A DNA stretch of 49,740 bases, the filler included, from Sphacelaria rigidula (Eukaryota), in NCBI GenBank assembly GCA_964200075.2. It is 3 parts of 3 records of this genome, joined end to end, with 100 filler letters (N's around TTAATTAATTAA, not from the genome) between each part and the next. Parts side by side here need not be neighbours in the genome. Positions count along the whole stretch, not along the records: positions 16,617 to 33,131 come from CAXNAA020001331.1; 2 more parts are not named here. One strand, written 5' to 3'. Below, in pieces: positions 8,301-39,000 of the stretch. Below the pieces are notes generated by a model. It did not search any database, was not told where the DNA came from, and was given only the letters and a program-made list of their open reading frames with translations. The translations under genes were made by a program, and so were the position numbers. Each line of letters opens with the position of its first letter. The first letter of the stretch is position 1.

Positions 8301-8445
8301 GCTCGCCACAATCTAGCCCGTCGTCAGGAGCAGCAAAAACACAGAAGAAACAAATACACAGAACAGACAGAAGCAATGGCCTCAGAAAAGAAACAAGAAA
8401 GGACACAGCGAGAACAACGAAGAGTACACCACCACCACCATCACC

Positions 8446-8477
<32 letters not shown>

Positions 8478-9420: not shown

Positions 9421-9861
9421 CCATGGCTTGCGGGACGACCGTCCCGAGGTGTAGCACAGCTTGCACGAGGTCCTCCGGCGTCACACGGTCGCCGCGACTG
9501 AGACGCGAAGTGAGGATGTTGTGATGTTCGACCGCCTGCATGCTGAGACTGTTCACACTTTTTTTCAAGGCCGAAGACCTCCCCTCCTGTTTCGTGGATA
9601 TCTTCCTGCTACGTGCCGGAGGGACGAATCTCATCTTCCGCTTCAGTGTGCCGTGAGCCGATGTGTCCTTGAACACGCATCTCTTGATGACCCCTGTCCA
9701 CACCTCTTGACACTGGGTAGGGACATCAAGGATTTCGGCTCCTTCCTGAGCTCTGAGCACGCGGCCGTCCAACGCCACGAGATTCTCGCGGCCGTCAGCG
9801 CTAAAGCCGAGGCAGTCACGCACGACTTTGACGGCACTGGCCACGGCGGGCTGACGTTTTT

Positions 9862-12222
9862 TTATGAGGCGACCCACGGCGCCTCCCTCGTGAGGAGGTG
9901 GAAGAACGCTTGCTCGATCTTGCCAATGGCCCTCTCGCGCGCGCCCACGATGGCAGCCAGCTTCGCGACAAAGGATTTCGTGATTTTCTTCGTTGCTCCC
10001 TTGTAGCCGCGGTTGGACATCTCTTGCCTCTCGTCCAATTCCAGGCGGGAGAAAGCATCCCCGCCCAACGGGGTCGAGAATAACTGGGTCAAGGCCCGGT
10101 GGTCGTCATCGGTCATGCGTGCCAGGGTCCTCAAGTGAACAGCAACTTTCCATTGGCATCGGTCCTTCCCGTAACCACAGAACATCGGTGCCGCCATGCG
10201 CAGGCAGGCATTAAGCAGCTTAAAATCTCCAGTGCGCACACCACTCCTCATCCCCGCGTACGCCGGGTAGTCGACGAGGAGGAATTCCGCCCAAACCTTG
10301 AACGTCTTGTGATCGACTGCTCGGCGCTTGATCCATTCCATGACCTGCTCAGCGCCGGCTGCTCCTTCGCGAAACGCTGGCCCTAGCTCGTCCCGCATGA
10401 TGGCCGTGATAGCCACAATGAAGGATTCGTAAAGGACCGTGAGCTGGTGGTGTGCCCGGCGGTAATTGGTCCCCTCTGCGGCGCTGGAATCGTCGTCACC
10501 GAGGTCTTTCGCCACGAACTCAAGGCCAGTACCCCACGTTATTTTCAGCAATGCCTTGGCAACGTGCATGAAAATGTGAAACTCCCCGGGCCACAGGAAC
10601 ACCTGCTCCAACATCTCTGGGTGCATCTGACAGTAACGGTAAACCCAGCGGAAGGTCTCCTCGTCCCCAGCTATCACGGTGCGGTGGCGTCCATCACGCT
10701 CGCCCAGCCCCAACATGCGGCAGACTCTGTGTAGGGCACGCTCACTTGCTTCATAGTCTTTAGTGGACCCCTCTTGGATAAACATGTGCACTGTCTGTTG
10801 CCGTATCCGGGGCTCCGGCAAGATAACACAGATAGGCACCGTGCGGAAGAGCACAAAGTTGGCATAACATACGCGAACGGAACACACTTGCAATACACGA
10901 CCGCCGTCTAACAGTCAACCATTAATCTCAGACTTCGGTACGGTTAGACGAGACAGCGGCATGTGTACCGGACACGGCACCATCATGCCGTCACTGTACA
11001 ACGTCAGCCTCGTGACACCCCAGCCGTTAACGTTCCCGCACGGTGCGGGCGATATCTCCTGGGGCCATAACGTGGGCACATGCGCGGCACGTATGCGATA
11101 GTCCCCCTTGGTGTGGCGAGGTGGACGTCAGCCGATGAACGTGAAGCACCCTCACGCCCGCACCCCACAGAAAATAATAAACGCGAACAAGTGACCCCGA
11201 CAGATTGCATGATACAACACGAACTATCCACTCCCACAAAATAAGAGCCAAAACTCTGCACTGGCGCAGACCCCCTTTCAACTGCTGAGAGATCGCACCC
11301 CTACGGTAGCATTTGTGCCCCACTCAAATGAACCAGATTCGAAACACCGGAACAGACGACGAAGCATACTTACCTTTCTCCACTCCGCTTCCATGCAAAT
11401 TTTATCGCCTCTTCGGCCACCAGCTGTGCTCCTGCAAGCGCTCCCGAAGAGATCCATCACGTGACTGTCATATATCTCTCGGGTTTGGTCAGGATGCAGT
11501 CCGTCCCTCACATCCACCACCGTGAGATCCTTGAGCGGGGTTCACTCCGAATAAGGAGATAGCTTTAAATTCCCGAGCTCTGGGTGGTCCTCTTCCACTA
11601 CCACGGCTGTTGCGGAAATAAAGGGCTGATATTGCGGCCCTTCGAGGTTCATGGTGGGATGCATGTCACAATTATCAAACGCCGCCGCGGCCACTCCCGC
11701 CCTCTGGGATATGGCGTGGTCTCCTCCCCGCCGCTGGACCACGAACTCTTTCCACTTCCTCGTCTGGCTGTCTGACAAGCGGATCTCAAGCCCCGCCATA
11801 AAATCATTCACTTTTCTCGTCGCCCCGCGAGATTTTAGCACCTGGGCCAGCATCCATGCATGGGGAGGCCTACTCGCGCGCCGCAGCACGGCAGTGATGA
11901 ACATCGTCACCAAGAAGTATGACAGGATCTCCTCTTTTGTGCTGTCGTTCCTTGTCTCGCCAGGGGCGAGTGGAACCGGCGCGGTTGTGTCGGCCGTATG
12001 CTCCACCTGCTGCGGCGCAGGTTCTTCGGTAACCCCACCCCCCATATCCCACCGAAACATCGCATGGAACAAAACGCGTAGCGACGTTGGCAATTTCGTC
12101 ATGTACTCAGATACGGGCACTAGCTCTCTCTCGATATCATCTACTAGCGTGGTGGACCTACGAACGTTCTTGAGCTCACGGAGGCGACGATATCGTCGCG
12201 CACGATCCACCCGGCTTTTCAC
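9862..12222 (-). pseudogene. Academ-type (DUF6589-like) DDE transposase core, frameshifted and probably intron-containing
   Basis: ORFs 11542-12222 and 9862-10893 carry the DN.D, GD and D...E signatures. There is a strong donor AAG|GTAAGT at 11373. Confidence 0.78.
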
Positions 12223-14627
12223 ACGGCGTCTTTACGTTGCTCCGGCGAAAGAGAGGCGGTGGCCGTGTGAGCATCCATGGTCACCGCCGCCCGTAGGTCA
12301 TTCAGCCTCTGCTCCATCGCGGCCAGCCTACGTTGGAGATCGCTGATAATCGCACCTCTGTTTCTACACAGCAAATGGAGCTTTGCGACCTCTCGGGAAA
12401 CCCGCGAGGAAGAAGGAAATTGCAAACCCTCCGCCCATCTATTGCTGATGTTTAGACACCTCGCAGTGCGACGGAGGCTACGTCGGACACGCTACGCCCG
12501 AGATCCGCCATTAGCTGTCGCGCGAGTTTCCGCACATACGTACGGTTCACGTCCGGACACTTTTCTTCCCCCCGATGTCCGAGTAGCCACTCCTCCACGT
12601 CCATGCAAGTTACTACAGCTCCTGTACTCAGCATGGCCTGCGCGCGCTGGGTGGTGCGGGACACCCATCCCCGTCGGTTGGGGCTTTGTCGTGGGCAGAC
12701 ATCATACGCGCTTCCTCCATGTTTGCAGAATGTAGGTATTTCTTGAACGAGCACCGACAGGCATTGCACGAAATGCTGTTGGCTGCCAGCGCCTTGTTCC
12801 CCTGTGACAGTAGTAATGAACCTCGGCGTCCGCCCCCTCCAACGGTGAAGTACTCCGACATTGCCTCGCACGCCTCTCCAGCTCGGCGCGAAGACGTCCG
12901 TGCAACGCCTGCGGACTCCTGATGGTTCCCGCAGACGTGACACCTTTGGCGAATGCACTTGAGTTTCGAACGCTCGAACGCCCGAAAGAGATCGTAGAAA
13001 CAATCGTCTCTTGAGCATAGGCATTCCGAGGAGGACGGTATGCACCATGAATGGCGGTGGACAGTCTGCCACCCCCATATTCACTCCACCACTTAGCCGC
13101 CAGACTCACTTTGTGCGCACCGAAGTGATTGAAGTCAGTGGCTGGCCGATGGCACGCAGCACATCGCCTGTCGCCCCGCGCGTGATCCGCGGTATAATGT
13201 GTGCACCAACCCACAACCCAAGGGCCGGCCGATCCGCATTCGGGCTTGCCACATTGCGGCCGCTTCCCGCGGCCACGTGCTGGGGCGGAAGAGACCTTTG
13301 TACGTCGCGCGGAGGAAGCCAAGCGACTTGTGGTTGGCGGCTGGCTCGTGTGTTGCTCATCGCGGGCGTGACGACCCCTCCGCGTTGCCATTCGCGATCC
13401 ACTCCCGCCGGCGGCGTGGCCGCCTCCAGGGCGTTCCAATTGCGCCGGGGTGGAGTCTTTCAGCGCAGAAGGGGGAGACAGGTCACAGGGTTCGCCGTTG
13501 GAGGCCTGTGTTGCTGCCGATACAGCGGCGGCAGTCAGCTTAAGACGGGGGACGGATCCCGTTAGCGCCCGATGATGTACTCCGGAGCCCACAACGTCGG
13601 CGCCGAAGGTGCGGGATCGGGATCTCTTCTGTCGCTCCATTCGGTCAGTTGATCCCACGCGGAATCCATCAGTATCCGGGGGCGGATCTGTTCTCTTCTC
13701 CATACGCGCAGGCGGAGTGGCGCAGTTTTCCGATGCGAGACCGGCGTGAAGGACGAGGCCATGCCCATCACCCGGTGTGTCTTGGTTTGGAAACATTGAA
13801 GGAGCCTCGGGTGTTGACAGCGCGGCGCCGCCTGGGGGGCGGAGACAACGGCGACGAGTGAAATTCCAGTTCTTCCCATATAAAGGACCGTGTGCGAGTG
13901 GCATCCGATTTATCCTTGCACAAGGTGAGACAAGTCTAAGTCGCTTTCTGTCCGTATGTCATCCTCTGCATGAGAAGCACTTACCAGGGAGGGGTGCAGG
14001 TGATTCTGCTGAGTATCCTGCAGCAACAAGGCGTATGTCTGCCAGGCCTCCGGCCGACACCTGCAGCGGGTTGCGAATGCACAGTCGAGGCAGTGTGTTT
14101 TCGGGGGATTGTCGGCGGCAAGCGGGAGGGCGGAGATAGGTACCCGTGTCGCCCACGTGACAGCCGCTGGTGTACCATGAGTCCTATTTGGCGGACTCCC
14201 ATCGAAGAATTGACATATCGTTTGGAGCGGTGTCCAATGCCAAACGATTGCCGTAACACGGCGTGGTGTTGACAGTTGGTGACTACCAGTTGCGGCCAGT
14301 TCCATAATGAGATATAGTCCGGAAGAATGAGCTTCTACCCTCCAAGAGTATTTCCGCCGCACTTTCAGCGACTGTGCTCGGCGATTTGTTTCGGCTAAGT
14401 GCACCTTGATGATGGCGTGGATGCTTCATTCCACGCGTTTTACCAAAGCCGTAACTGTTCAAATCTGACCAAAATCCTCATATAACCCTCATATCGGTTC
14501 GGGGGGGGAGTACGGTTGGTCTCAGCGCTGTGAGCTGACGGGTTCGGTACAAAGCGGTGAGACACTCCGTGCGCGGCCGAGGGGCATCAGACTGAGCAAA
14601 AAAGCATCGGCCGCCGTCGCTGAAAGT

Positions 14628-15050
14628 GTGGGGAAAGCTCTGTTTGCGGCTAGACGCTCACTGTACTGAAAAGTATTTTTCAGTATGTGATTGGCCGTTA
14701 CGGGCAGTTGCGAAGCGACAACACCGGGCGGTGTTGAGGCCGTCATTATTTATTAGGAACTGGTGGGCAAGGTATTTCCATTCTGGTGGGGAGCCCGCCC
14801 AACAGGAATTATATTCCAAAGGGCAGGCCCGAGAAGAGCAAAAGAGTGGGGAAAGCACTGTATGCGGGGAGACGCTCGCTTTGCTGCAAAATAGTTTTTC
14901 GTATGTAATTGGCTGTTAGTGGCAGTTGCAAAGCGACCACACCGGGCTGTGTTGAGGCAGTCATTATTTCTTAGGAACTGGTGGGCAAGGTATTTTCATT
15001 ATGGTGCGGAGCCCGCCTACCAGGAATCATAATCGAAAGGGTAGGCTCGA
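14628..15050. repeat. ~219-bp tandem duplication
   Basis: GTGGGGAAAGC...ATTGGC.GTTA...TTAGGAACTGGTGGGCAAGGTATTT...GGAGCCCGCC occurs twice, starting ~14628 and ~14847. Confidence 0.9.
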
Positions 15051-15779
15051 CAAGAGGGACAGGAATCATCGGCCGCCATACATTCGTCGTGATACAGGAC
15101 CCCATGCGAAGAACAACGACGGTGTTTTGAATCCCTGACAACATGTGCTTCACATACGGACGACAATGCGATGCAAACATTGTACAGGGCAACAGATGCG
15201 TGTCTCACCGGTGTCCCCACGGCGTTTACTCCCTCGTTCTTGGAGTCGCGGCCTGTCACGCAACTTCCCCCCGGCGGCGTGTTCATGGTACCACACCTGC
15301 CAATCACGACCGCAGTGAGCGATGGACCGTCGGACCTGTGGTTATGTGATTGATTGCTAGTGTCATGTACACAAACCCGCGCCCACTGCGACCCTACTTT
15401 CAACCCCGATGTACACGCCGGTGCCGTGTCCCACCCGAGAAGGACGCACGATCATCACGTACAAGAATGTTTTCGTGAGATTGGCAGAAGAGCATTGGTC
15501 GAGAGCGGGTTATATCATTCGCTTCATCTTGACCAATTACTTATCCTGTGTGTGCTTTCGTTCGCTTCAATCACTCGCGAAAGGTTCAAGCGGACGCCTC
15601 TACCGTACTCAGGGATATGAAGGAGTTCATTGGCAAGCTACAATGGAAGGCGTGTGGGGCCCCGTGGAGGGGCATCTCGGAACAGAAGTTATTCATTCAT
15701 GTATTCACCGCTGCCTACTCTGGAATGTATCCTCACCTCTCCATCTCACAAAACCTTTGTTACATCATATGCGACAGCT

Positions 15780-16516: not shown

Positions 16517-16616
16517 NNNNNNNNNNNNNNNNNNNNNNNNNNNNNNNNNNNNNNNNNNNNTTAATTAATTAANNNNNNNNNNNNNNNNNNNNNNNNNNNN
16601 NNNNNNNNNNNNNNNN
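16517..16616. other. Assembly gap with six-frame-stop linker
   Basis: N-run, TTAATTAATTAA, N-run. Confidence 0.95.
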
Positions 16617-19475
16617 GGGGGGGGGGAGGGAGGGGGGGGGGGGGGGCGCGAGGAGTGTTGTTCGTACGTGGGGATACTCATTCTTTGCTTGCCTTAGTCG
16701 TTTGACAATTGACTACGCATCCCTTTCTATTCCTCATAGAGACACCTCCAACATTTAGGTGTTCATTACGTGGGGGCGAGTAGTCCAAATACCAACTCGC
16801 GAACAAGTTTCACACACAAGAAGCGGCCGCGTTGATGCTCAGGAGCTAGTATCTGCTTATACCTGGGTGTCTCACGACAGTGGTGATAAAAATCACCCGT
16901 AGCACGATGGGGGAATGGGCAATATACTAGCTTCGCGTATTCATAGCACCGAGTGATAAGTTGCGACAGATGACGAAGGCGAGAGGAATTCTTGTGAAAC
17001 ACACAGCCCCCATCTTTCGATGAAGTTCCACGTTCAGAATGATGCAAGCAAAGACACCGTGATGCGGCTCGTTAAAAATGGGTCCACCATATTGCGAGGT
17101 ATAGGCTGGCAGATAGAGCTCGGAAATGGTTTGTTGAATAGTTACGTGTAGCGCACGCATTAACCAGTAAAATGGTACATGATGGTTGGGTCATCGAGCG
17201 GCGCAGCCGCAAGCCAGAAGCCTCCCCCCGGCAGAGGGGGACCCCGCTGGAGGCGTCGTGCCGGAGGCACGTTTTTACACGATTTGGCTTCACTAGAGCC
17301 AAAAAATACGTTAAATTTGGGCTAATTTTCAAGGGCTGTGTGTAGTATTCGTAGCCGGTAACGGTAAATAATTATTCGAAACCATTATCCAAAAAATTGG
17401 CATAACGATCACCATTATGACCATTATACTGATAATGGCCAGTTATAACTGATACCATTTCCGAGCTCTCCTGGCATCTGTATCGGCGGACGTACCTGTG
17501 GCGGATTTTTGTAACCCTAGACGCACAAGCAATTTGTGTGGTAACAACTCGAGAGGTTGAATCCTACTCGACGCATATTTAAGAAAGCAGAGAGATCCTT
17601 GCCTCCTGATAGGCTGTGGTGTCCTCCTTGTCCACCTCGAGATCTCCCCCGGCGTCCATCTCATCCCAATCGCCCAGGATACGATAAAATGGCAGGCTGA
17701 TTTGCCAAACAAACACCATGTCACGTTGCAGAAGTGATCGCCGGCGGAACGCGGGGGGTGGTCAGACCTTTCATTCGGAAATGCCGTGAGGGTTGACGTA
17801 AAGCTAGTTCTACGTCCTGTTTCATGAGCCTTGGCGTCCCTAATAACAAACTACTTTTACAACCAGAAAAATGGCTGTTGCAGTCCATCAAAAACCAACG
17901 CAGCGAGCAGACGATACAAGAGCATGCACGCGTCATATACCGCTATTGAGAGCGCTACCCGTGAAAACCGGTGCGCTCATGGGCAGATCAGCGCCCCGAC
18001 AAATGCAATAACTTGGGGAATTTCGCTGAAGAAGTTGCCTCATGCTGCATAATCAGAGATACGCGGATTAAGCACCTGCGTTTACGACGCCTCCACACGC
18101 CCAAAATTCCGCAAAAAAATGCGCAGGGTGGTCGGTTAGGTACATACCCCCATGTTCGTTTGCTGCCAGTGTGAGTGTCGGTGGTGTGCTGCCCGTATTA
18201 GTGTCGGTGGTGTAGAACTAGAAAACTTGGCCGAGTCATTAAGCAAACGAGTACTTGTACTAAATTCCAGGATGACCTTACAAGTGCTTCGCCCTGCAAA
18301 ATCACAAAACGCCTACCTAGACGGCCCACCAGCACATTTGCTTTGCATCTCTCACGTTGGATCGTCCATGTACGCGCGCATGCCTCCAGGTGTAAACCCC
18401 GACGCCGGATTCGAGCTGCTCGAGAATCGTATGGCAACCTCACAGCCGTGGTTGAGGTGTGGTCGATCGTTGGCTCGTAAGGCCTGGGCAACGTGGAGGC
18501 AGGGTAACGCAACAATCAGCAATTGGAAAAGTACGACCCTCCACATTCTCGAGAGCATGGTGCTGCAGTCCACGGGCGTCTCCAGTGGATTTTTTCCACC
18601 TAGATCATAATCCTACACCTTCCCTTGTCGTGTTTTCGTCTGGTGACAAAACGTTGGAGAGGTGCACCCTTCTTCAGCGAAGTGACTTCCGCTAACGTAC
18701 CTCGAGTGTAATTGCTGCTACGTGTCTCGGGGCGTGATTAGGGCTTGGATATAGATGCTCATCATCTTCCGTCCTTTCATTTTGCGATGAGCGCCCTGGT
18801 TGTTGTCTTGGTCCGAGAGGTGCTCCGTCCGGCGGGGGCGTTTGTTCCAGGGAGTCTGACTTTGTGGCGGATCACCGTGGGCGATACATGCAAGACGGAT
18901 TCTTCGTTAGCTGCATGCCATATGCAATTGCGGTGTCGGTATATCGCAGTGAAGTTAGAGCATCCAGTCTGCGTAACTTCAGCAGCACCGCTCGTGTAAA
19001 GGCTGCATTGCGGTCGTGTTCCAATATCATAGAGAGGCGGGTGATGCATCTATTCGCGGTGGCAACTGGGTATACCCGCGCTGTATACCGGGTCGTCGAC
19101 GGTCAGTTCGTCAGGTGACCGCTGGTGAGCTCTAAGCTATCGGTTTGGGGCCTTTGCAGTAGGATCATTTTCTTACCTCCGTCGCGACAGAAACACGAAG
19201 TTGAGTTAACACACACTTATGCAGGAGAGTGCTCATTTGCTTGTTTCTCGACTTCTTCGGTCTGCTATTTTCTATCTGTCTGACATCTTACTCGTTTCTC
19301 GAATTTCCTTCAACGAGTGTTTCCGTTTGATTCACACACTGGATATGTCTACTGTGCGTGTACAGTATCTTGCGACAACGGCTGGGTGCCCCGGGGGTAA
19401 GTAGATATGCAACAACCAATCGACCAATCGATCAATCTAGTATGCACCTCACTGGCAGCCGAGGAGCACCAGCAG

Positions 19476-20763: not shown

Positions 20764-21739
20764 TCAGGAGGTAAGCACTTTCTTTTCCCCCTTCTTTTCC
20801 TTTCTTGTTGTTGGGCCCAGTATGATCGAAGGTATGTTGTTCAATAAAAATTCTCCAATTCAGGAGATCTCCCAACGGCCCATTGTTATCAAGATCTGCT
20901 GTTGCTGTTGGATATGTTATTACGGATGTAGTGGTGATCTCGTCGTTTGCTTGCCTTCGCCGGCAAAATGAAGGACAGGATAATGCTGCCTGCCCATGTA
21001 GGGCGTTGGAAACTACGGCAAACATCCTTCTCGCAACCTCTCTGTGAAACGGGGGGGGTAGTCGGGCAGGCGAGGGCATGATCGATCAGCTCTCCAGGGA
21101 TGCAGTAGCAGCACACACACACACACAAACACAAAAAAAATATACAGACCGTAAAAAAATTCGTGCAAAGATTGCAGCATGCTTACGTTCTGTCAGTTCT
21201 ATGCGCCGATACACCCACTAGACCGCCAGCTATAGACTTTACAGACGGTGCGGTAGCGTACACTCGTGGCAGCACAGCAGGCAAGCAGGTAGCTAATGAA
21301 TTGTTTCTGCTCTTCACTTCGAACATGCGTATGTCCGCAAACGCCGACCACTGTGCTTGACCCCAACATCTCCAACACCGCTGCCAACGTACACACCGTC
21401 TAAGAAGATGGACACCGCCGATCCACGGTGATTTTTACTCTACGACATGGCCTAGGGTGTCACTGGCAAGGTTTCTGATGACTCTCGCACGCTTGCGAGC
21501 GCCACGGCGTGCTCACAGGGCAGCGCTGCGAAGTCTTGCGCTGCAGTCCGAAGTGTTCAGACTTCTCCTGACGTGAAGCGTACGAGAAAAAATCACACCC
21601 TGGACAATACAACATCTTTTCCATATATATTGGTCGATCATGTTGGAATTTTGCGATACAGAGGGCGCCCGCACTTGATAACATCTCATTTTGAGCGAGG
21701 CTCAGTTTTTGTTAGCTGCCCCAACCCAGCACAAGTGCT

Positions 21740-21935
21740 TATTTCGTCGCCCCATCCTTGTCCAAAAACGATGTTCTTGTTCATATTTCAGCACCAATTG
21801 CTCCATTCGTGTGCAACAGTCGTTATGCACAAGTTCTTGTTTGCCATGATCTTATTTCGTCGTCCCATCCGTGTCCAAAAACGGTGTTCTTCTCCGTATT
21901 ACAACACGGATTGCTCCATTGGTGTGCTACAGTAG
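21740..21935. repeat. ~113-bp tandem duplication inside the TIR element
   Basis: TATTTCGTCG.CCCATCC.TGTCCAAAAACG.TGTTCTT...ATTGCTCCATT.GTGTGC.ACAGT at ~21740 and ~21853. Confidence 0.85.
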
Positions 21936-22244
21936 TCAGTATTACGGCACTTTGGTGGCGCTCAACTGCACTCGGCGGGCATGAGAACACTGGTGCTGCT
22001 GTTTGGCGCAAGAAAACACCCCCCCATGGGGCAACTATCAACCTTCTTGGTCCAATAGGGTGACGTTGGGGGTGCGTACCCTTCCCGCTCTACTGTATGT
22101 GGCTGCAGCGGTACACCACATGTGCGGGTTCTTGGTCTTAACCCCAGGTCCAATTTGAGCACGTGTTCTTATGGGCAAGTTCTTAATATTTGAAGTATTT
22201 GGGCCTCAAATTCTCAAGTGCCATGTTCTTAAGTGCGGGCGCCC

Positions 22245-23645
22245 TCTGTATATTGCCGGCGTAATATATATTGGTACCCTTGCATGACCAATACATATTA
22301 GAGTCGCATTGGTGAGAACATATTACCCGGTCAACATATATTGGATCTGCGTGGGTGCCAATGTATTGACCGGTCAATATATATATATTGGATATCATAA
22401 GTATGGTGTACGCTCTGAGGAAGATCCAGACGCGATGGATGCTCGAGCCCGTGCAGATTGGGAAAAGCTTCAAAGGGAGCCGCAGAAGTTCGCGTGAATG
22501 ACTACGGAGAGTAGTCGAATGCGTTTGACACATACATACAGTATCTACATACTAGATAGAAAATATGGTGACAGAAGAGGCGACCTGGTATATATGCCTC
22601 CTGATACCTAAGTGGCCACCGGTGCGGGGCCGCCCATCGCCTTCCCAGCATGTAATTAATATATCTTAGCGAAACATCACGATGACAGAAAACGCGGGTC
22701 GATATGCGCCTTTTGGTACCCCTGTGGTCACCGGGGCTGTGTTGCTTATACCCTGGACAATACAATATGTTCAAATATGATACCAATACTTGGTATTGGA
22801 GCCAGCTCAAATATTGTCCTTTCAAGATATATATTGTGTTGGAATGTCCTCGGAGACATTGGAGCAACAACATATATTGCTCGTGTCATGGTCATGAAGT
22901 AATGTATGACAATATATGTCGGACATACCTTTGCTCCGGGAATAAAACATTCGATATATATTGTGCATGCCGGCCGTGTATGTATTGAAGTGTCAAAATA
23001 TATTGAGTCGAAGCGATGCGTAGCATATTACTACCATAATATATATTGAACGCAAACCATGCAAAACGTATTGTTTTCCCAATATATATTGCGCACGCTC
23101 ATCACATAGCTTTTGTGCAGTCAATATATATTGAACACGCTCGCGGAGGGATATATTGAGCGTTTTCGGCACGTGGTGATACATATTTCAATGGCGCCCA
23201 CGAACATAGAGTTGCCCACTATACTAATTTCAATACACTTTGCAATCTACATGTTGAAAATAAAAATATATTGCTACACCAATATGTATTGTCACCATCC
23301 GTTCCCTCGTGTATTGTCCGCCCAATATATATTGGACGCATTGACGCACGACATATTGGAGCGGCAATATATATTGGCGCTTCGGGTGTCGAGTATATTG
23401 AATCATCAATATATTTTGACCTCGTGTGGCAGCCAATATATTACTCGACAAATATATGTTGGTGCCTTCTCGCACCAACATATTACGAGGCCAATACATA
23501 TTGAGGTGATGCGTGTCGTGATATATTGTTCCGTCAATATATATATGGCATGTCGCGAGCCTTGACATACTGCTCGCCCAATATATATATTGACCACCCG
23601 ACGCGTCGACATATTGAGCGGGCAATATATATATATATATATATT
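22245..23645. repeat. Phased motif array TATTG-N6-CAATATATATTG with unique spacers (~21 units, 42-43 bp period)
   Basis: The 12-mer or close variants start at 22262, 22289, 22332, 22375; 22825, 22868, 22910, 22952, 22994, 23037, 23080, 23122; and 23280, 23323, 23365, 23407, 23450, 23492, 23535, 23579, 23623. Confidence 0.9.
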
Positions 23646-25382
23646 ACATTTTGTATTGTCCAGGGTGTGGAAAAAATCAAGCTGCTTTATCTTCGGCGAT
23701 CGCTGAGCGCCGGGTCTGAAAACGCCCAAAATTACGGGGATCTCGGCAGACTGAAGATGTACCGGGACAGAATCTGCTCAAATAAACTAGCGGGCGAAGC
23801 CCGCATCACAAGTCAGAACCCACACACAAAGAAGGTAACCCAAGGTGAGTTGAAAGAAGCGCGACTATGGCCGAGCGGTCACACTCGGCACTTGACCAAA
23901 AATGAGGACCCCCAAAATCAGGCGGAGGGCTAAAGCAGGACACATGTCCTGTTTCACTGTGCCGCAGCATAGACACACTTACGCCCTCTCTCATGTGTTG
24001 GAGCATTCACTGTACTCCGGGGTGTTGACGCATTGCGAAGACAGCTTGGATTGCATGAGCTGCGATATTGTCGTTGTGTTCGCCTCCCCAGAAATCAATG
24101 TCAGTCGGCACGCAGTGCTGGCTGCACACTGTTGAAAACTCCATGGTGTGTTGGCTGTTTCGCCTTTCGTGAAAAAATCAAGGCGCTGTCCGCTGCTACG
24201 ACACTCCTGCTGGTGCTGTGTGTTGGGGGAGTGTACTGTACTCTACTACTGTGTTTGTTCAGTGTACTCTACTGTGATACGTACTGTTACTATTAATGAT
24301 ACCATGTGAGTTCGGGCGTCATTGGCCGTGAGATTCGACCGTACGAACACTAGGTTCAAGACTACTCTCTCGACAATTCCCAAGCAAAATGAAGCGATCT
24401 GATGGGCAATTCACAAGCGATATGTCCCGCTCCAAATGCGGTCTGCCGGGATCTCCGAGAAAACAGTGCCGATAATGATGGGCCTTAGTATCAATTTTGA
24501 TCGTTTGCTTCTTTTTTTTGTATCGCGTCTGCGTGAGTTCTTCTGGGTCCAATTTCTCTTTCATTTACCCTACTCTCAGGTAGTCAGCCTGAGATTCAGA
24601 TGCCCAGTACAGAGTACTGCGGAGATATCGGAACGGTTTTTAATGTGAAAACAACAACAACAACAACAACTCCACGTTGCTTCTGCGATGCTTGCCTTTC
24701 TTTGTATCGCGAGGAAGGCCGAACGGTTTCTTTCCCTCGTCGGCGATGCGGTGAACTCGAATGCTTCGTAACCACGACATAGTCGCTCTAAGCTGTTGGC
24801 AAGATGTGAGGAAAAATTCCATGTTGTATGCCTTCACCGAGAATGTAATCCACATCCAACTCGTCAAAGAGTTGCGACCCGACCGACTGAGCCATCAGGG
24901 CAACCGACAAGGAGGGGCACACTATGCAAGAGAAGAACTCATCACTTACAGAAGTGAAACAGATCTTGAGAAACTCTGACGCATACCAAGAGTATCAGCA
25001 CGGCTTCTCGATAGCAGCTGTCTGGATGTACAGCTGGCTGCCTCTACATGCCTTGCACGTAGCCCCGAACCATTTCGAGGTATCTGTATGCGACTACCTT
25101 CTTGATGTAAGATCGTTGACCCGAGAGCTCACTAGAGATGTGGTCAGTGGATCCTCAGTGATGAGGCAGTGGAAGCAGTATAAGACAAACCCCACGGTTG
25201 CAGAGTCGTTGTGTCGTGAATTGATTGCTGATGCTAGGCCTAGACTCAGGTGGGAGTCTGGACAACGAAGTGATGCGAGGGAGCTGGGAACCAATCCTGA
25301 TAGCTCAGAACTAGAATATGACACATGTATAATCCTAGCAAACGGGGGAAGGCGTAATGCTTCCTTTGATCATCTTGTATGG

Positions 25383-26220: not shown

Positions 26221-26974
26221 AATCACAAAATCAATGACAGGTGCGTGTCGTCAGTTGTCCGTGATACCACCACCGTGTCACCTACAGTGCAGTAGATCAC
26301 AGAACAGTATACGACGTTGATGCTGCACTGGTATGCCCGTGAATGGGGGCCTTAGCGACAAAAATCCGCGGTCAACAAATAAAAAAAAGAAACGCGGAGG
26401 GATAATGAAGACGCCATAGACTGGTTCGATCTGTGCCGAACCTCTGCCGAGCAGGAGACACTTTCCATCCCAAGTCTAGGTTTAGTATGCGACAGCTGTA
26501 ATCCTCTCCATCGCCTCGTTCTCAACACAGGAAGCAAAGCGGCCTGTGGCACTTCACACTACCCCGCACACACACTAGACCTACGGACTATAGGAGCCGA
26601 TTTGACCAATTCGCCATAGCGGACCCGAAAGGCCCCAGAGCGTTAAAGGTAACGCGTTTTCAAGTACATTTTGGGTTTGGTGCAGCGGTTTGCAGAGTGC
26701 TGCTGCCTCTGCAGTGCGCGTTCCGGAAAACCGTCTCTATACTCGCTAGTTCCGGTGTGTGGGGAGCACACGCATCAAACCGCAATCCAATCCTCTGCTT
26801 GGTTTCCGAGAAAATCTCGTTGAAAGAAAGGCACAACAAGAGACTGCAACAAAAGGGGCACAACAACAGCACGAGCAGTAGCTTCCATCCTCCTGTTGTT
26901 GTAAACCCGTGTACAGGTGTACAGCAAGGTCAGTCACAGGTTTGCTATACGAGCTGGTTCACGCGTATCACCCA

Positions 26975-27900
26975 AAACTGTGTCATCAGCAAATGCCTTT
27001 CGCAGTACCTACCCAATAGTCGCATGCATGATATCGTACTTACCACCATGAACAGCTCAAGAGCGTGACATAGCCGGATTTGTGTCTAGGGCCATTCTGG
27101 TAGCGCCCTTCAAATTGTTATGAAATTAAAAAAACACGAATTCCAAGCCCAATTTTCACCGAATGTCCACATGCTTCAAATCGTAGTAACCGCCATCGGC
27201 TCGGGAATCAAACGGGGAAAACAGATTTAAAGACGGTTGAAACGGGGTCGAATTATACCTGAAACCGTGATGTTTCGTTAATGTGGAGTTTCGACGTCGT
27301 CTCATTTTCACTAATGATACGCACGAAAGACCCAGGAAGCCTCGTGAGGGTTTGCCCTATATCTGTAGTAGAAAAGCTCAGATCACCCCCTTGTAGGTAT
27401 TGATACTCCAATTGGAAAAATTGCGTTCTTCACAATACCAACAAAAACTTCCGTTCTCTACCGGCTGCCGGGGGTCCCAGTATAAAGACCCCCGGAAGGC
27501 GGTACAGAATACCTCAATAGAAAAATAACAATACGATGCCTCCCGGAATAGTCCAAGGAACACATGTACAAGGTTTGGTCGAGAAACTCGAAATCATCAC
27601 ATAGTTTTTCTTGCCTTGAAGTAAAATTCATCCAAAATGACGTTTTCATACTAAAACCAAGTAGTTACGAGTTGCATGTTTCAAGTTCACGTCCTCGCAC
27701 AAACACGCAAACCTTCACGCAGTTATTAGGAGTTAGACCCTGAAACCTTGCACAAATGTGCTATGGATTATTACGCAAGTTTCGACGGACAAGGTTTTTT
27801 ACTTCTTTATTTTTTCACCGTTTTTCGGGGGTCCGACGTGATTCGAGTCGTTTTTTCGGAGTAGTCTCCATTCGGGGACCCCGGAAAACCGGCACTGCGA
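26975..27900. repeat. Dispersed repeat, inverted paralogue of 36290-37570
   Basis: GAATTCCAAGCCCAATTTTCACC, GCGTGACATAGCCG and AAATGCCTTTCGCA are mirrored at 37350-37550. Confidence 0.8.
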
Positions 27901-29350: not shown

Positions 29351-29381
29351 AACTCGTCCTCTAAGAGTCAAGGAATAAAAG

Positions 29382-31063
29382 CAAGGTTGTGTTCTGTAGG
29401 GTACGATTTCCTGTATACCCGGAGTATGTTGCCGGGTATTTACCGTACCCGACAGTTCTGTGACCTTTGCAAGACTTTCATACCGGTACTCGACAGTTCT
29501 GTAATCTCTGTAAGACTTTTACACCCTTACCCGATAGTTCTGCAATCTCTGTAAGACTCTCGTACCGTCACAGGGGGGCACGGGTATGCTCTTGATGAGA
29601 TACCTGATTGCGGGTACATTTTTCTGTGCAACCTCCGTACCCTACCCGACAGTTTCTGTGAGTTCTGTAAGCCTCCCGTACCCTTACCCGACAGTTCTGT
29701 GCGTTATGTACAAAATGTTTACCCGTACCCGGAGCGCGGGTATGCTCTTGAAGAAATACCCGATTGCCGGTACCGGTTTTCTGTGAGCCTCACATCCCGT
29801 ACCCGACAAGTTCTGTAATATCTGTAAGACTTTCATACCGGTACCCGGCAGTTCTGTGAGCTCTGTAAGCCTCCCATACCCCTATCCGCGGTTAGGATAT
29901 ACCGTTATAGGTATACCCGATTGCAGGTTTGAGCACAGGTAGATACATACCTTGGGGAGGTGCGGATATAGGTTAAATCCAAACACATGACCTGAAAATG
30001 TACTTCCCATCGATCAACACCCCCAGCTCCTTCGTTCACTTGGAAAATTGTTTAGTTTGGGATCTGACGGGATACGAGGTACCGCTGAGTGGAAACACGA
30101 CACATGAGCAGCCCTGCAGACCGTCAGGATGGATCACCCCAAGACTCGAGTGGTGGCTCGGGCGGGGGTGGTTCATCCGCGCCACCAGAGGATGACGTAG
30201 CAAGACGCACGTTATCGACGTTGATGGTGATTGTGTTGTGGTCAAACAACCCTAGGCCGTTATCGACATGTACAGCGCAGAGTATGAGCTGCCACCGAAA
30301 GTCGTCAACGCCGTCGGCGATTTTGTCGCGTGCCGAAGGGCTTCCAGGGGACAGGCAGCCGTGAATGCTCCCTCCTGTACTCTCTGGGAGTGTGCGTGAG
30401 GCCGATAGATGTTGACGATCCCGTGCACATGTACTACTGCGATTGTTCGTGCAGCCTTTCCCCATCAACCCTGTGAAGCCGTTCAGAGTTTTCGTGAACT
30501 TTCGTCTGTATTTTAGCCACTATTGTAGCGACGTAGGTCCCACCACAGGGGTGATGATAACCCCAAGATCGTGTTCTGTAGGGTACGGTTTTCTGCATAC
30601 CCGGGGTATTTTGAGGGATATATACCGTACCCGACAGTTATGTAATCTCTGTAAGACTCTCATACCCTTACCCAATAGTTCTGTGAGTTCTGTAAGCCTC
30701 CCGTGCCTTTACCGGGGAGCACGGGTACGCTCTTGATGAGATACCCGGTTGCGGGTACGGTTTTCTGAGCAACCTCCATACCCTACCCGACAGTTTCTAT
30801 GAGTTCTCGAAGCCTCCCGTACCCTTACCCGACAGTTTTGTGAGTTCTGTACAAAAACTCTAACCAACCCCGAGGGGTGGGTATCCCTGAAAGAGTTACC
30901 CGATTACCGGTACCGGTTTTTTGTAAGCGTCCCATACCGTACCCGACAAGTTTTGTAATTTCTGTAAGACTTTCATACCGGTACCCGACAGTTCTGTAAG
31001 TTCTGTAAGGAATCTTTTACCCTACAGAATGTACCCGTAACCTACAGAAAGAACACAACCTTG
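29382..31063. mobile_element. CAAGG-terminated MITE family: two ~500-bp ACCCGACAGTTCTGT-rich copies (29382-29890 and 30564-31063)
   Basis: Left TIR CAAGGTTGTGTTCTGTAGG at 29382 with a variant at 30564. Right TIR CCTACAGAAAGAACACAACCTTG ends at 31063. Confidence 0.75.
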
Positions 31064-32456: not shown

Positions 32457-33110
32457 CAGGCTGGGCCGCCCAAGAAGCCACCAGGAATGTTGAAACGCAT
32501 TTCCTTCGCTAAACTTCGGATCGTTTTCGATAAAATTTTGACGCGATGTACAGGACGTATGTGCGAACACTTCACCTCCCACCCCCTGTTTTTTTTTTCG
32601 TTGGTTATTGGCAATTTTGTTTCGTAAAAAACTGTTCTGAAATGTTCCTTTGCCAATAACTCACGAAGAAAAAAACAAAAGCAGGGGATGGAAGGTGAGG
32701 TATTCGCACATACGTCCTGTACATCGTGTCGAAATTTCATCGAAAACGATCCAAAATTGAGCGAAGAAAATGCGTCATTCCGTCGACAAGCGGTTTTTTT
32801 AGAATATGGAGGTGGACCAGTTACGAATAATTCAAACGCATTTCCTGCGCTCAATTTTGGATTGTTTCCGAGGAAATTTTGAGACGATGCACAGAACGTA
32901 TGTGCGAATACCGAACCTTCCCTCTTACGTTTTTTTCATTTTTCTGCGTGAGTTACTGTCGATTTTGTTCCGAAAAAAACTCTTCTGAAATGTTCCGTCG
33001 TCATTAACTCACGAAGAAAAGAAAAAACATACGGGAGGAACGAAGAGGTGTTTGCACATACGTCCTGTACATCATGTCGAAATTTCATCGAAAACGACCG
33101 AGTATTGAGC
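32457..33110. repeat. Repeat family with alternating-orientation modules, copy 1 (cut by the gap)
   Basis: Starts GCTGGGCCGCCCAAGAA.CCACCAGGAATGTTGAAACGCATT, as at 48807. CGATGTACAGGACGTATG occurs in both orientations. Confidence 0.85.
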
Positions 33111-33131: not shown

Positions 33132-33231
33132 NNNNNNNNNNNNNNNNNNNNNNNNNNNNNNNNNNNNNNNNNNNNTTAATTAATTAANNNNNNNNNNNNN
33201 NNNNNNNNNNNNNNNNNNNNNNNNNNNNNNN
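33132..33231. other. Assembly gap with six-frame-stop linker
   Basis: N-run, TTAATTAATTAA, N-run. Confidence 0.95.
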
Positions 33232-36000: not shown

Positions 36001-39000
36001 GAGCGCGGAAAAAAGTTGGGATTCCGCTACTCCTAAGCCCAGCCCTATCCCCTCGCCCTACCCCTCGACCCCATCCTCGAAACCTACTCCTCTACACCAA
36101 ACCCCACAGGCTGGTTAACGCTCATCAACAACAAAAATACTCATCCACAAAACGTCACGCCGTTTTCGGAAGTTAGACCCGGAAAGTTTGCACAGTTTTT
36201 CTCCGGGTGATGACGCCACTTTCAAAGGTCGAGTTTTTTCTTACTTATCGACTGTTTCTACCTTTTTTCGGGAGTCCCACGGATTTGGAGGAAACTTGGA
36301 TCCGTCGGACCCCCGAAAAACGGTATAAAATTCGAAAAAAAATATCTCATTCATCGAAGGTTGCGTGATGACCCATAGCACATTTGTGCAAAGTTTCAGA
36401 GTTCAACTCCTAAAAACGGCGTGAAGTTTTGCCCGTTTGTGCGATGACGTGAGCTCGAAGCATGGGAAGTCGTAACTACTTGATTCAAGTATGAAAATGT
36501 CAATTTTTGAGGTGACGTTACCACTCGGTAGTTTACAGATATTTCTCGGAAATTTATGGTTTGTGCAGGTGCTGATGCATTTCCAATATAACACTAACCC
36601 CAACCCAAACCCCAACCCCAACGAAGACATACCGAGAACACTCGGGCAAGGGGGGTGCAACGTATTCCCTAGGCGAAGCGTGCGTTGCCAGACCTCAAAT
36701 CGACGCCCCAGGCGCCGAATTAGACAAAAACGGGTTCTGCGCACGCTAGGAGCACACCAGGAGCATAGCGCCCTCCAAAGATCCGGATTTCGGTGTTCAC
36801 ACTAAACCCAATACTGCACCTATCCACAAACCGTAAATTTCCGAGAACTATCTGTCAACTACAGAGTGGTGAAGTCTACTGCAATTTTTTGTGAACTAAA
36901 CGTCAAGGAGAGAAAAACTATATGATCTCTTCGAGCTTTTTCACCAAACTTTGTACATATGTTCCTTGGATTACCCCGAGACGCATCATCTTGTTCTTCT
37001 TCTCTTGAAGGATTATGTACCGCTTTCCGGGGGTCTGCACACTGGGACCGCGGAAGCCGGTAGAGAACGGAGAAATTTTGAAATATTGTCAGAAATACAA
37101 TGTTTCCGATTGGAGAATCAATACCCACGCAACTGCCAAGTGTGAGGACAATCTGAGCTTTTCTACAGCAGATACTAGGGAAAGAGTCACGAGGCTACCT
37201 GGGTCTTTGGTGCGCATCATCAGTGGAAAATAGACTACGCCAAAACCCCACATCGCCGAAACATCACGGTTTGGGGTATAATTCGACCCCATACTAACCG
37301 TCATGAAATCTGTTATTTTCCGTTAGACTGGGTGAAGCATGTGAGTATTGGGTGAAAATTGGGCTTGGAATTCCTATTTTCAAATTCAGAACAATTTGAA
37401 GAGTGCTGATTGATAGATGGGTACCTTTTCGCCGTTAGGGCCACCATTATGGCCTTAAACACAGATTCGGCTATGTCACGCTTTTCAGCTGTTCATGGCG
37501 GTTAGTATGATACTATGTTTGCGACTATTGGGTAGGTATTGCGAAAGGCATTTACTGATGACACAGTCATGGGTGATGAGTGATAAGCATGAAACAGTCT
37601 GTAAGCACGTCTGAGAAACCGACCGTGGGGAAGGGATGAATCAGAAATTGGCAAATGAACATGTGTCACAGCATGACAAGTGGCAATAGCATAGCACAGC
37701 ACTCGTGATAGACAGCACACCTCAAGCTAACTGCACACAGAACGGAGCTACTCCGCTCTAGGGTCAGGGTTATCGGTGTCGAAGTTCAGCTGGCGACAAA
37801 TGTTCCGAAAAGAGATCCAGAGGCCGACTGGTGTAAGGTGTCCGCGATCATAGAACGCTTACATTCACTATATAATCGGCAGCCCAAAATCACCATATAT
37901 CAACAACCACACTCTACATCCGAGGCCTCTTCAGTCGTTCTAAGCTCCGGTGCCTCAAGGCCTACAAAGACATGGAAGAGCAATACGTTTGCGGAAAGAA
38001 GGACGAGATCTCCACACGTTGCGTACCTCGTCTCTTTGCTTGGACGACTCAAAGTTGAAGAAGGCAGAGCCTCCGTCCCCTTCCATGAACAGCTCTAGCC
38101 CGGTCTGCCGCAGCATGTGTCTGTACCCCCCGCCCCCACCACCCCCACCCCGCGGCAAGCAAACGTGGAACATCATCACAGACACCAGGAAAGGGAGATA
38201 TAAGCTTCTTGAGCAACAAGTAACAACCGTGCATCAGCATCTACCGCACCCGCCGATGTACATGTTATTCCCTCGCTATGCGCGCGGCTACGCGATATCA
38301 GCAGCACTACCAGTAATCCCAGTATAAAGTACGATCAACAATACTCGCGCTCAGCTGAATGTTTGCCACGGTAGACTCCTCGCCTGTTTTGACTCCAACA
38401 ACACAGACAAGCATTTAGCCGCCGGCATCTATACGACACTGCTTGCTTAGGACATGTCCACACCAACATGTAACGATGACCCCACCACACCAAACCTCCG
38501 TGGGTCGATTTCAGGCGTGCCGGGACATCCCAGCTCGAGCATGTGACATGAGGACCCTGTGATACCGTTTGCGTACCCTACTTTGTGAGTCATGTACCGT
38601 ACCGATACCCCGCCCGGCCACAAGGCAGCACGAAGGCCCCACAGTTGGCACGACATACGGTACGAGTAGCGGCCCGCTCATAAGAAAGTGAAAGTCAAGC
38701 TGAGCCTGACGTACTTCTCTGATGCGAAGATCTGCTGTATTGGACCTAGTGTGGCGGTGTTCACTGAGGCTGAACACTTTGTCACTTCTTTTGGAAAGCT
38801 CATGCTGATTTTCGTACATCCTAATTTCTCACGAGCGGGATGCTACCGTATAATTACTGCCCGAAACACTGGAAATATGTTTCAACCACCTTTACGCTAG
38901 TCATTGCACTGTGCTCAACATCGATATTTACACGCAACTGCGTGCATTCTACTGTCTCAACCTACTTCAACGATATTACCTTCGCTTGAAGGCGTGAAGG

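What the first reader, a model, noticed from the sequence alone, without database searches (positions are those of the whole stretch)
22245..23645. CRISPR-like repeat/unique-spacer array phased at four helical turns inside a TIR element
Seen: ~21 copies of a bipartite palindromic motif, TATTG-N6-CAATATATATTG, at a near-constant 42-43 bp period in three runs. Both the N6 and the ~17-18 nt spacers differ in every unit (e.g. AGTCGAAGCGATGCGTAG, GACGCATTGACGCACGA, GCGCTTCGGGTGTCGAG, ACCTCGTGTGGCAGCCAA). Ordinary satellite decay would erode motif and spacer alike, so motif and spacing appear to be selected. All units share one orientation and are concentrated towards one end. Established: many cut-and-paste transposons have subterminal transposase-binding motifs, and 42 bp is about 4 x 10.5 bp. 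Inference: a phased protein-binding lattice, or more speculatively an array of recombination sites (inverted arms around a 6-bp core) or a processed small-RNA array. No cas genes are present.
Basis: partly seen in the sequence, partly recalled or inferred. Interest (0 to 1): 0.85.

Follow-up and report, generated by a model that had tools for sequence, protein, structure and literature searches.

The report
Transposon packed with evenly spaced docking sites
This is a high-copy, non-coding jumping-gene relic in a eukaryote whose body is a regular 42-base lattice of one short palindromic motif, most likely landing pads for its transposase, and not a CRISPR-like memory array.

Summary
21 cores like CAATATATATTG lie in three runs at 42-44 bp spacing, and a 22nd lies at the element's left end. 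16 of the 22 carry an upstream ATATTG half-site six bases away, all in one orientation. The N6 and the spacers carry almost no information.

The array fills a cut-and-paste transposon, 21594-23669, with a 19-bp TIR and a perfect 8-bp target-site duplication. A 590-bp TA-flanked MITE interrupts it, and it contains an extra internal copy of the left TIR. No ORF in or beside it matches a protein family.

Public contigs show a high-copy family. About 50-115 distinct contigs cover each array position in each run. Pieces of 230-360 nt match at 82-88%, whereas out-of-register units match at only 54-59%.

The most likely reading is an old tandem array in which only a protein-binding motif and its spacing were kept by selection for mobilisation. 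That makes it a transposase docking lattice. This is inferred, because no transposase was found. It is a new variant of a known kind, of moderate to low interest.

The parts
21586..21593 (.). Left copy of the 8-bp target-site duplication (GAAAAAAT)
   Evidence: Read. It is identical to 23670-23677 and directly abuts the TIR.
21594..21612 (+). Left 19-bp terminal inverted repeat (CACACCCTGGACAATACAA). It contains a CAATAC half-site-like hexamer.
   Evidence: exact match, 3 matches in the window against 0.03 expected., I1: the arm extends to 37 nt at 84%.
21621..21632 (+). First core-like palindrome (1 mismatch), 27 bp in from the left end
21657..22250 (.). Foreign nested insertion, not part of the array. 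It is a 590-bp MITE (21659-22248) with about 26-36-bp inverted ends, flanked by duplicated TA. It split a half-site of the first full unit.
   Evidence: I2 (36 nt, 86%). joint 21656->22249 (skips 592) in 11, 14, 8 and 4 contigs of the four runs, so other copies lack it..
22250..22390 (+). Left run of units (cores at 22262, 22289 degenerate, 22332, 22375)
22400..22746 (.). Motif-free interior with no protein-family match. It is variable between copies.
   Evidence: One search shows loose ends and joints at 22465-22570.
22747..22765 (+). Internal second copy of the left TIR (2 mismatches) without a target-site duplication of its own. It is followed by the palindrome CCAATAC-TTG-GTATTGG at 22783-22799.
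   Evidence: I7.
22807..23133 (+). Middle run of 8 units (cores 22825-23122, spacing 42-43 bp)
23134..23261 (+). About three decayed units (a half-site at 23153 with no core, and core-like remnants). The decay is shared by the family.
   Evidence: table 3, place 23172: the family reading is also non-canonical.
23262..23646 (+). Right run of 9 units (cores 23280-23623). It ends in an (AT)10 microsatellite at 23625-23644 that grew out of the last core.
23651..23669 (-). Right 19-bp terminal inverted repeat
   Evidence: exact match on the minus strand.
23670..23677 (.). Right copy of the 8-bp target-site duplication (GAAAAAAT)
   Evidence: Read. joint 21579->23673 (skips 2093) in 1, 2, 2 and 0 contigs: copies of the surrounding repeat that lack the element.

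Best explanation
Positions 21594-23669 are one copy of a high-copy, non-autonomous cut-and-paste DNA transposon of a eukaryote. It has a 19-bp TIR and an 8-bp target-site duplication. Its superfamily is unresolved.

Most of its body is an ancient 42-bp tandem array. Substitutions have randomised the 6-nt and roughly 16-18-nt spacers. Three things were kept: a 12-bp palindromic core (CAATAT|ATATTG), an auxiliary half-site (A-Y-ATATTG) six bases upstream, and the unit length.

Inferred mechanism. The core is the dimer-binding site of the DNA-binding domain of the family's transposase, which is supplied in trans. About 42 bp is four helical turns, so all sites face the same side of the helix. Many protomers could then bind cooperatively next to both TIRs, hold a high local concentration of transposase and help the two ends pair. 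Lineages that kept motif and spacing kept being mobilised, which is why those features alone survived.

What is shown: the anatomy, the mobility signatures, the high copy number, the fixed spacer order, and motif and length conservation against saturated spacers. What is inferred: the binding protein is the transposase, and phasing is what matters.
For: Mobile element.
- The TIR gives 3 matches against 0.03 expected.
- A perfect 8-bp direct repeat flanks the outer TIRs.
- Contigs join the flanks without the element (joint 21579->23673).
- A deletion derivative joins 22282 to 23311.
- 3,689-10,053 contigs per run lie on the 3.6-kb stretch at 80% identity or more.
- In the array rows that table 3 printed (10 of the 40 rows shown; 475 more were not shown), 45-116 contigs cover each position in each run.
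- No coding signal: 0 of 9 internal ORFs have a Pfam match at E<=1, and none of the 127 window ORFs is a transposase.

Constraint on motif and spacing.
- Motif columns carry 0.7-2.0 bits, and N6 and spacer columns carry 0.0-0.3 bits.
- Spacers are 27% identical against 25% when shuffled.
- Whole units are 56% identical on average (136 pairs of 17 units). Even so, 16 successive distances stay within 42-44 bp.
- CpG observed/expected in the spacers is 1.2, so CpG decay does not explain the contrast.

The array is older than the family's spread. Copies are 80-99% alike and share their spacers, while units within a copy are at saturation.

End association. A core lies 23-27 bp inside each outer TIR, and the TIR itself holds a CAATAC hexamer.

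Precedent.
- Galileo THAP sites recur in the tandem repeats of its long TIRs (PMC3688188, abstract).
- Lemi1 proteins bind the subterminal motifs of the Emigrant MITE (PMC1636448, title and abstract start only).
Against: - No autonomous partner or transposase was found. The window holds none, no genome is held, and my scans of public collections returned only chance matches. The identity of the binding protein is therefore pure inference.
- All units point the same way at both ends. Classical subterminal sites are usually mirrored or irregular. The palindromic core softens this objection but does not remove it.
- More than 20 sites filling about 70% of a 923-bp inner element is far more than known transposases have been shown to need.
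- In Hermes, mutating interior repeats cost only about 30% of activity (PMC10368747).
- The mean period of about 42.4-42.9 bp is only compatible with four helical turns. No test of phasing was possible.
- The composite structure (second left TIR at 22747) is unexplained.
- The left-end sequence has much lower summed depth than the array (table 2). Part of the array family may therefore sit in other contexts.
Confidence: 0.6

Rival explanations
1. The lattice binds a host protein rather than the transposase. The transposon would carry or have become a dispersed array of sites for a host factor that binds palindromes. Candidates are a chromatin, silencing, boundary or replication-origin factor, in the manner of the repeated palindromic EBNA1 sites of a viral plasmid origin (recalled, not checked here).
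For: It rests on the same conservation of motif and spacing. The uniform orientation and the even filling of the whole body, rather than clustering at the ends, look more like a platform than like end recognition. The array has much higher summed depth than the left end (table 2).
Against: Selection by the host on hundreds of dispersed copies is hard to sustain. Conservation along a transposing master lineage is the simpler source of constraint. Cores sit next to both TIRs. There are no data on any host factor.
Confidence: 0.12
2. The array is a neutral minisatellite carried by the transposon. It would be a by-product of slippage or unequal exchange at palindromes. The AT-rich core would persist for mutational reasons, such as AT-repeat slippage or hairpin-guided repair or conversion, and would have no binding function.
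For: Unit number varies between copies by exactly one unit: the joints 22913->22956 and 22918->22961 skip 42 bp in 1-2 contigs. Cores grow by AT steps (22375, 23535, 23579, 23623, table 4). MITEs with internal tandem repeats, a palindrome per unit, a microsatellite at one array end and a fixed order of variants are described (DTC84, PMC3879986, abstract).
Against: Slippage of (AT)n cannot preserve the flanking CA...TG, the separate upstream half-site at a fixed 6-bp distance in 16 of 22 units, or the unit length, while the spacers reach random identity. In the described tandem-repeat MITEs whole units stay alike. Here units are 56% identical, and TRF does not detect the array even at score 30.
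Confidence: 0.15
3. The array is CRISPR-like, a processed small-RNA array, or a row of site-specific recombination sites (6-bp inverted arms around a 6-bp core).
For: The pattern of repeat plus differing spacer is regular. The transcript would fold well (z=-6.9), though repeated palindromes are expected to give that. A few runs guessed to be RNA hold 6-11% of the sampled words.
Against: Spacers and their order are the same in the other copies. Spacers have no matches beyond chance elsewhere in the window: 3 hits against 0.5 expected, one of them the nested MITE's end. Rfam gives nothing at E<=1. The host is a eukaryote, and no cas or recombinase gene was seen among the ORFs scanned. The arms are only 6 bp, far shorter than the arms of known tyrosine-recombinase sites (recalled).
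Confidence: 0.03

Closest known systems
Subterminal repeats of hAT elements (Hermes STRs bound by BED domains; PMC10368747, passages read)
   Same: Both have short motifs repeated inside the ends and beyond a short TIR. Both have an 8-bp target-site duplication. In Hermes a palindromic pair is bound cooperatively, spacing relative to the TIR is critical, and the transposase is multimeric.
   Different: Hermes has 4-bp motifs at irregular, asymmetric positions (17 and 14 per end). This element has a 12-bp palindrome plus a half-site on a strict 42-43-bp lattice, all in one orientation, across the whole element. No transposase is available to test membership.
Galileo and Foldback-like elements (THAP-domain sites inside the tandem repeats of long TIRs; PMC3688188, abstract read)
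   Same: Transposase-binding sites recur once per tandem-repeat unit, which suggests higher-order multimers and specificity through multiplicity.
   Different: There the repeats are part of long inverted arms. Here the TIR is 19 bp and the arrays run in direct orientation. The units here are much shorter and diverged outside the site.
Tandem-repeat-containing MITEs (DTC84 of Donax trunculus, PMC3879986, abstract; Tetris, PMC4079207, listing only)
   Same: A non-autonomous element built around an internal tandem array, with a palindrome in each unit, a microsatellite at one array end, a fixed order of unit variants and variable unit number between copies.
   Different: The abstract describes only diagnostic changes between units, and I recall units of about 150 bp (not checked in a call). 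Those elements have putative AA target sites and short inverted repeats. Here the units are 42 bp and 56% identical, with only the motif conserved, and the element has an 8-bp duplication and a 19-bp TIR.
CRISPR arrays
   Same: Only the visual pattern: a regular repeat alternating with differing spacers of similar length.
   Different: The host is a eukaryote. The repeat is a degenerate 12+6-bp motif. The spacers are fixed across the many contig copies (45-116 per position per run). No cas genes are present. The array lies inside a transposon that has a target-site duplication.

Membership tests
Class II cut-and-paste (TIR) transposon, non-autonomous | Terminal inverted repeats | tested here: met
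   The 19-mer is exact at 21594(+) and 23669(-). 3 matches against 0.03 expected.
Class II cut-and-paste (TIR) transposon, non-autonomous | Target-site duplication directly flanking the TIRs | tested here: met
   8 of 8 identical bases at 21586-21593 and 23670-23677.
Class II cut-and-paste (TIR) transposon, non-autonomous | Many dispersed copies, and sites without the element | tested here: met
   3,689-10,053 contigs per run lie on the stretch. The joint 21579->23673 occurs in 1, 2, 2 and 0 contigs. The joint ends are imprecise by about 9 bp at the 80% identity setting.
Class II cut-and-paste (TIR) transposon, non-autonomous | No transposase gene inside | tested here: met
   0 of 9 internal ORFs have a Pfam match at E<=1.
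hAT superfamily | 8-bp target-site duplication | tested here: met
   P, some MULE and other superfamilies also make duplications of about 8 bp (recalled).
hAT superfamily | Terminal bases fitting the hAT end consensus (Y-A-R-N-G, recalled) | tested here: not met
   The ends read C-A-C-A-C.
hAT superfamily | Transposase with a BED finger, an RNase-H-like core and a hAT C-terminal dimerisation domain | not testable with these tools
   There is no autonomous copy in the window and no genome is held.
CRISPR array | Spacers differ between copies or strains and derive from foreign DNA | tested here: not met
   Contig pieces match at 82-88% across 5-8 units, against 54-59% out of register. For example, 97, 110, 101 and 72 contigs agree on one N6 base at 23360.
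CRISPR array | Near-identical full-length repeats and adjacent cas genes | tested here: not met
   The exact full motif occurs only 3 times. No cas family appears among the 137 ORFs scanned. The contigs are eukaryotic.
Tandem-repeat-containing MITEs (DTC84 or pearl type) | Internal array of units that are alike over their whole length | tested here: not met
   Mean unit identity is 56%. TRF finds no array at score 30.
Tandem-repeat-containing MITEs (DTC84 or pearl type) | Fixed order of unit variants, a microsatellite at one array end and a palindrome in each unit | tested here: met
   shared order; (AT)10 at 23625-23644.
Foldback or Galileo-like elements | Long, internally repetitive arms in inverted orientation | tested here: not met
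   All units share one orientation: 16 of 22 upstream against 0 of 22 mirrored. Similarity between the two ends stops after about 20-37 nt.

The most novel reading that the evidence does not exclude
The element is more than a transposon with many transposase sites. It would carry a self-contained nucleoprotein lattice: more than 20 in-phase palindromic sites that nucleate a cooperative filament or multimer. That lattice would be kept by selection long enough to randomise every spacer, and would give the element a function beyond end recognition. Possible functions are tethering or segregation, origin-like activity, acting as a transposase sink that regulates the family, or recruiting a host chromatin factor. 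It would be a eukaryotic transposon counterpart of iteron or EBNA1-type repeat arrays.
Probability: 0.1. Interest if true: 0.65.

Novelty: new variant of a known kind. Interest (0 to 1): 0.3.

Why it matters
If the reading is right, this family is an unusually clean natural footprint of what a transposase needs. Evolution has erased everything in the array except a 12-bp palindrome, a half-site at a fixed distance and the 42-bp register. The binding site and its required geometry can therefore be read directly from the sequence.

This gives a precise handle for three tasks. The first is finding the autonomous element and its DNA-binding domain. The second is testing cooperative, phased binding. 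The third is annotating the thousands of related fragments in this genome.

It also serves as a caution. Patterns of repeat plus unique spacer in eukaryotic DNA can be old tandem arrays under site-specific constraint, not acquisition arrays.

Tried and rejected
- Whole-genome search: no genome is held for this window.
The same scan of viral contigs gave 27 loci. None of the 146 stored loci holds the 19-mer TIR or a single exact core, so all are chance matches. The pattern was too short for collections of that size.
- A two-core pattern (two exact cores 29-32 bp apart) gave 0 viral loci. It gave 4 loci in prokaryote genomes, which are isolated pairs in Clostridia and Tannerellaceae MAGs with no array and are unrelated.
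- Earlier notes of this scan: nothing on this genome or on similar sequence.
- Coding reading (42 = 14 codons): the period alternates between 42 and 43, and the ORFs inside have no family match.
- Structured RNA: no Rfam match at E<=1. The strong fold z-score is what repeated palindromes give and was not counted as evidence.
- CpG decay as the cause of spacer divergence: rejected, because CpG observed/expected is 1.2.
- Inner element 22747-23669 as an independent insertion: rejected, because its left flank does not repeat the 8-mer found at its right flank.
- A second copy of the element, its interior or its flanks elsewhere in the window: none found.
- Summed contig depth (table 2) is not used as a copy number.
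- Literature: no paper holds the 12-mer. Searches on subterminal repeats, tandem-repeat MITEs and phasing returned the analogues cited in this report and no description of a lattice like this one. Most subscription journals are outside that library.

Full report
**1. What the window is**

No whole genome is held for this window. The window is three contigs joined by N/TTAATTAATTAA/N linkers at 16517-16616 and 33132-33231. The finding lies in the middle piece.

The DNA is repeat-rich and almost free of recognisable genes. Of 137 ORFs scanned against Pfam, two have a match: a DUF6589 ORF and a FAN-type PH-domain exon. Look-alike clusters of the DUF6589 ORF are eukaryotic. The public runs that hold the stretch are one coded organism plus algal, protist and marine metagenomes. 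I did not try to name it further.

**2. The observation**

It is real and far from chance.
- CAATATATATTG with at most 1 mismatch occurs 15 times against 0.07 expected. 13 are in 22245-23645, one is at 21621 in the same element, and one is outside.
- TATTG-N6-CAATAT with at most 1 mismatch occurs 26 times, counting both strands of a palindromic pattern, against 0.58 expected. 25 are in the region.
- There are 21 in-phase cores in three runs, and a 22nd at 21621. Successive distances are 42-44 bp.
- 16 of the 22 cores have the upstream half-site with at most 1 mismatch. 0 of 22 have its mirror image downstream, so all units point one way.
- The consensus over 20 units is A.ATATTG-N6-CAATATATATTG. 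Motif columns carry 0.7-2.0 bits, and the N6 and spacers carry 0.0-0.3 bits.
- Spacers are 27.0% identical pairwise, against 25.4% when shuffled (p=0.03). The N6 is 26.1% against 25.1% (p=0.19). The best local match between any two spacers is no better than in shuffles.
- Whole units are only 56% identical (38-73%; 136 pairs of 17 units). This is why Tandem Repeats Finder reports nothing here except the (AT)10 run at 23625-23644.

**3. Anatomy**

- The 19-mer CACACCCTGGACAATACAA occurs exactly at 21594 (+) and 23669 (-), and with 2 mismatches at 22747 (+).
- The outer pair is flanked by a perfect 8-bp direct repeat, GAAAAAAT, at 21586-21593 and 23670-23677. The transposed unit is therefore 21594-23669, 2,076 bp.
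- A foreign 590-bp MITE (21659-22248) interrupts it. This MITE has inverted ends and a duplicated TA (I2). Removing it restores a complete unit, GATATATTG-CCGGCG-TAATATATATTG.
- The remaining layout from left to right is:
  - left TIR;
  - a core 27 bp in from the left end;
  - about 4 units;
  - a 347-bp motif-free interior;
  - a second left-TIR copy at 22747;
  - 8 units;
  - about 3 decayed units;
  - 9 units;
  - an AT microsatellite grown from the last core;
  - right TIR.
- The inner TIR copy has no duplication of its own, so the composite moved as one piece. How it arose is unexplained.
- Similarity between the ends stops after about 20-37 nt.
- None of the 9 ORFs inside has a Pfam match at E<=1. 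Rfam finds nothing at E<=1.

**4. Other copies**

The only access to other copies was one read-laying run on 20800-24400, with four runs of contigs at 80% identity or more.
- 8,631, 10,053, 9,743 and 3,689 contigs lie on the stretch. For X1 the identity classes are 624 at 99% or more, 1,482 at 95-99%, 3,228 at 90-95% and 3,297 below 90%.
- In the array rows that table 3 printed (10 of the 40 rows shown; 475 more were not shown), 45-116 contigs cover each position in each run.
- The longest listed pieces cross 5-8 units at 82-88% identity. For example, one piece covers 23082-23439 with 58 other letters and 4 gaps in 356. Another covers 22989-23331 with 52 other letters and 2 gaps in 341.
- Blocks of units compared out of register within the window reach only 54-59%. 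Such pairings would not pass the 80% filter. The copies therefore share spacers and spacer order.
- Single positions confirm this. At 23360, inside an N6, 97, 110, 101 and 72 contigs read the same other base.
- Joints show four things:
  - copies without the nested MITE (21656->22249; 11, 14, 8 and 4 contigs);
  - copies of the surrounding repeat without the element (21579->23673; 1, 2, 2 and 0 contigs; ends imprecise);
  - a deletion derivative (22282->23311; 0, 4, 1 and 0 contigs, plus about 40 contigs per run in X1, X2 and X4 whose loose end at 22282 runs into a unit like the one at 23323);
  - copies shorter by exactly one unit (skips of 42 bp).
- Most copies lack 2 letters at 23581, so the family's core there is the canonical 12-mer.
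- Caveats. These are contigs, summed depth is not a copy number, and only the best-supported rows were shown. The summed depth of the left end is much lower than that of the array, which I cannot fully explain.

**5. What this rules out**

That is what I find. The spacers also have only chance-level matches elsewhere in the window: 3 against 0.5 expected, one of them the nested MITE's end.

Some units keep weak residual similarity (81% over 59 nt between 23319-23374 and 23575-23632; mean local score 4.02 against 3.70 +/- 0.07). This fits an old tandem duplication. CpG decay does not explain the contrast between motif and spacers, because CpG observed/expected is 1.2.

**6. How it most likely works**

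The units are at saturation outside the motif, yet the copies are 80-99% alike. The array is therefore much older than the family's spread. During that time the motif, the 6-bp gap and the unit length were kept. With this many substitutions one would expect many indels (inference), yet 16 successive distances stay at 42-44 bp.

The simplest source of such constraint is selection for mobilisation along the transposing lineage. On that view the core is the dimer site of the transposase's DNA-binding domain, the lattice places all sites on one face of the helix, and multimeric binding next to both TIRs helps end recognition and pairing.

There are three precedents. Hermes BED domains bind a palindromic pair of subterminal repeats cooperatively, with critical phasing (PMC10368747, passages read). 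Galileo THAP sites recur in tandem repeats (PMC3688188, abstract). Lemi1 binds the subterminal motifs of the Emigrant MITE (PMC1636448, listing).

The points against this reading are set out in the Against line:
- no transposase was found;
- the orientation is uniform;
- there are more sites than known systems need;
- the composite structure is unexplained.

I give the whole statement 0.6. The transposon identity alone I would put above 0.9.

**7. Comparison and novelty**

It works like subterminal-repeat arrays of hAT, P or MULE elements, and it looks like a tandem-repeat MITE (DTC84: palindrome per unit, microsatellite at one end, fixed order of variants; PMC3879986, abstract). It differs from the first kind by its strict lattice and direct orientation. 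It differs from the second by units that are conserved only at the site.

The superfamily cannot be assigned.

Two earlier notes of this scan describe arrays of the same kind in other genomes: e1-2578110 (a MULE end in a rotifer) and e1-636639 (a Naegleria MITE). These are unchecked leads.

I found no printed description of such a lattice, within the limits of that library.

Verdict: a real and tidy feature, a new variant of a known kind, with interest 0.3.

Noticed in passing
window 16517-16616 and 33132-33231: The window is three contigs joined by runs of N around TTAATTAATTAA. The second piece starts with a 30-nt G run (16617-16646), which looks like a sequencing artefact. Repeats 'shared' across these joins (for example 26967-27805 with 36334-37577) lie on different contigs.
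   Followed up: partly
window 21657-22250: A nested 590-bp MITE with a TA duplication and about 26-36-bp inverted ends. It has an internal 86-bp duplication (21738-21823 and 21851-21936, 85%) and several GTTCTT motifs. Other copies of the host element lack it.
   Followed up: partly
window 21163-21593 and 23678-24190: The DNA into which the element inserted is itself a high-copy repeat (table 2). A similar GAAAAAATCAAG site stands unoccupied at about 24170.
   Followed up: partly
window 29375-29888 and 30557-31009: Another repeat family carries 41-bp tandem units (79% matches, TRF) around a GTTCTGTAAGA-like motif. It is present twice, about 1,140 bp apart. This is an ordinary homogeneous array and a useful contrast to the finding.
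   Followed up: no
window 1073-1429: Tandem arrays of 74-bp (3 copies) and 40-bp (4 copies) units that share CAAGTTGGCTCAAGCGCT.
   Followed up: no
window 9865-10914 (-): A 350-aa open frame with a borderline DUF6589 match (27.3 bits, cut-off 27). Look-alike clusters are scattered over arthropods and Mucoromycota, a patchy spread that suggests a mobile-element protein. No TIR of the studied family lies nearby.
   Followed up: partly
window 42822-43451 (-): An exon-like frame with a FAN-type N-terminal PH domain (E=1.2e-10). It is one of only two ORFs in the window with a Pfam match that reaches the family's curated cut-off.
   Followed up: no
window 22783-22799: A 17-bp palindrome, CCAATAC-TTG-GTATTGG, just inside the internal TIR copy. 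It is a variant arrangement of the same half-site with a 3-bp gap.
   Followed up: no
L147-L150 (prokaryote genome contigs), around 2001-2056: Four gut or anaerobe MAG contigs carry a lone pair of the same 12-bp palindrome 41-44 bp apart in intergenic-looking AT-rich DNA. The pairs look like operators and are unrelated to the element.
   Followed up: partly
window 14623-15056 and 48974-49224: Two-copy tandem duplications of 218 bp and 125 bp. The second belongs to a repeat family also present at 32460-33110.
   Followed up: no
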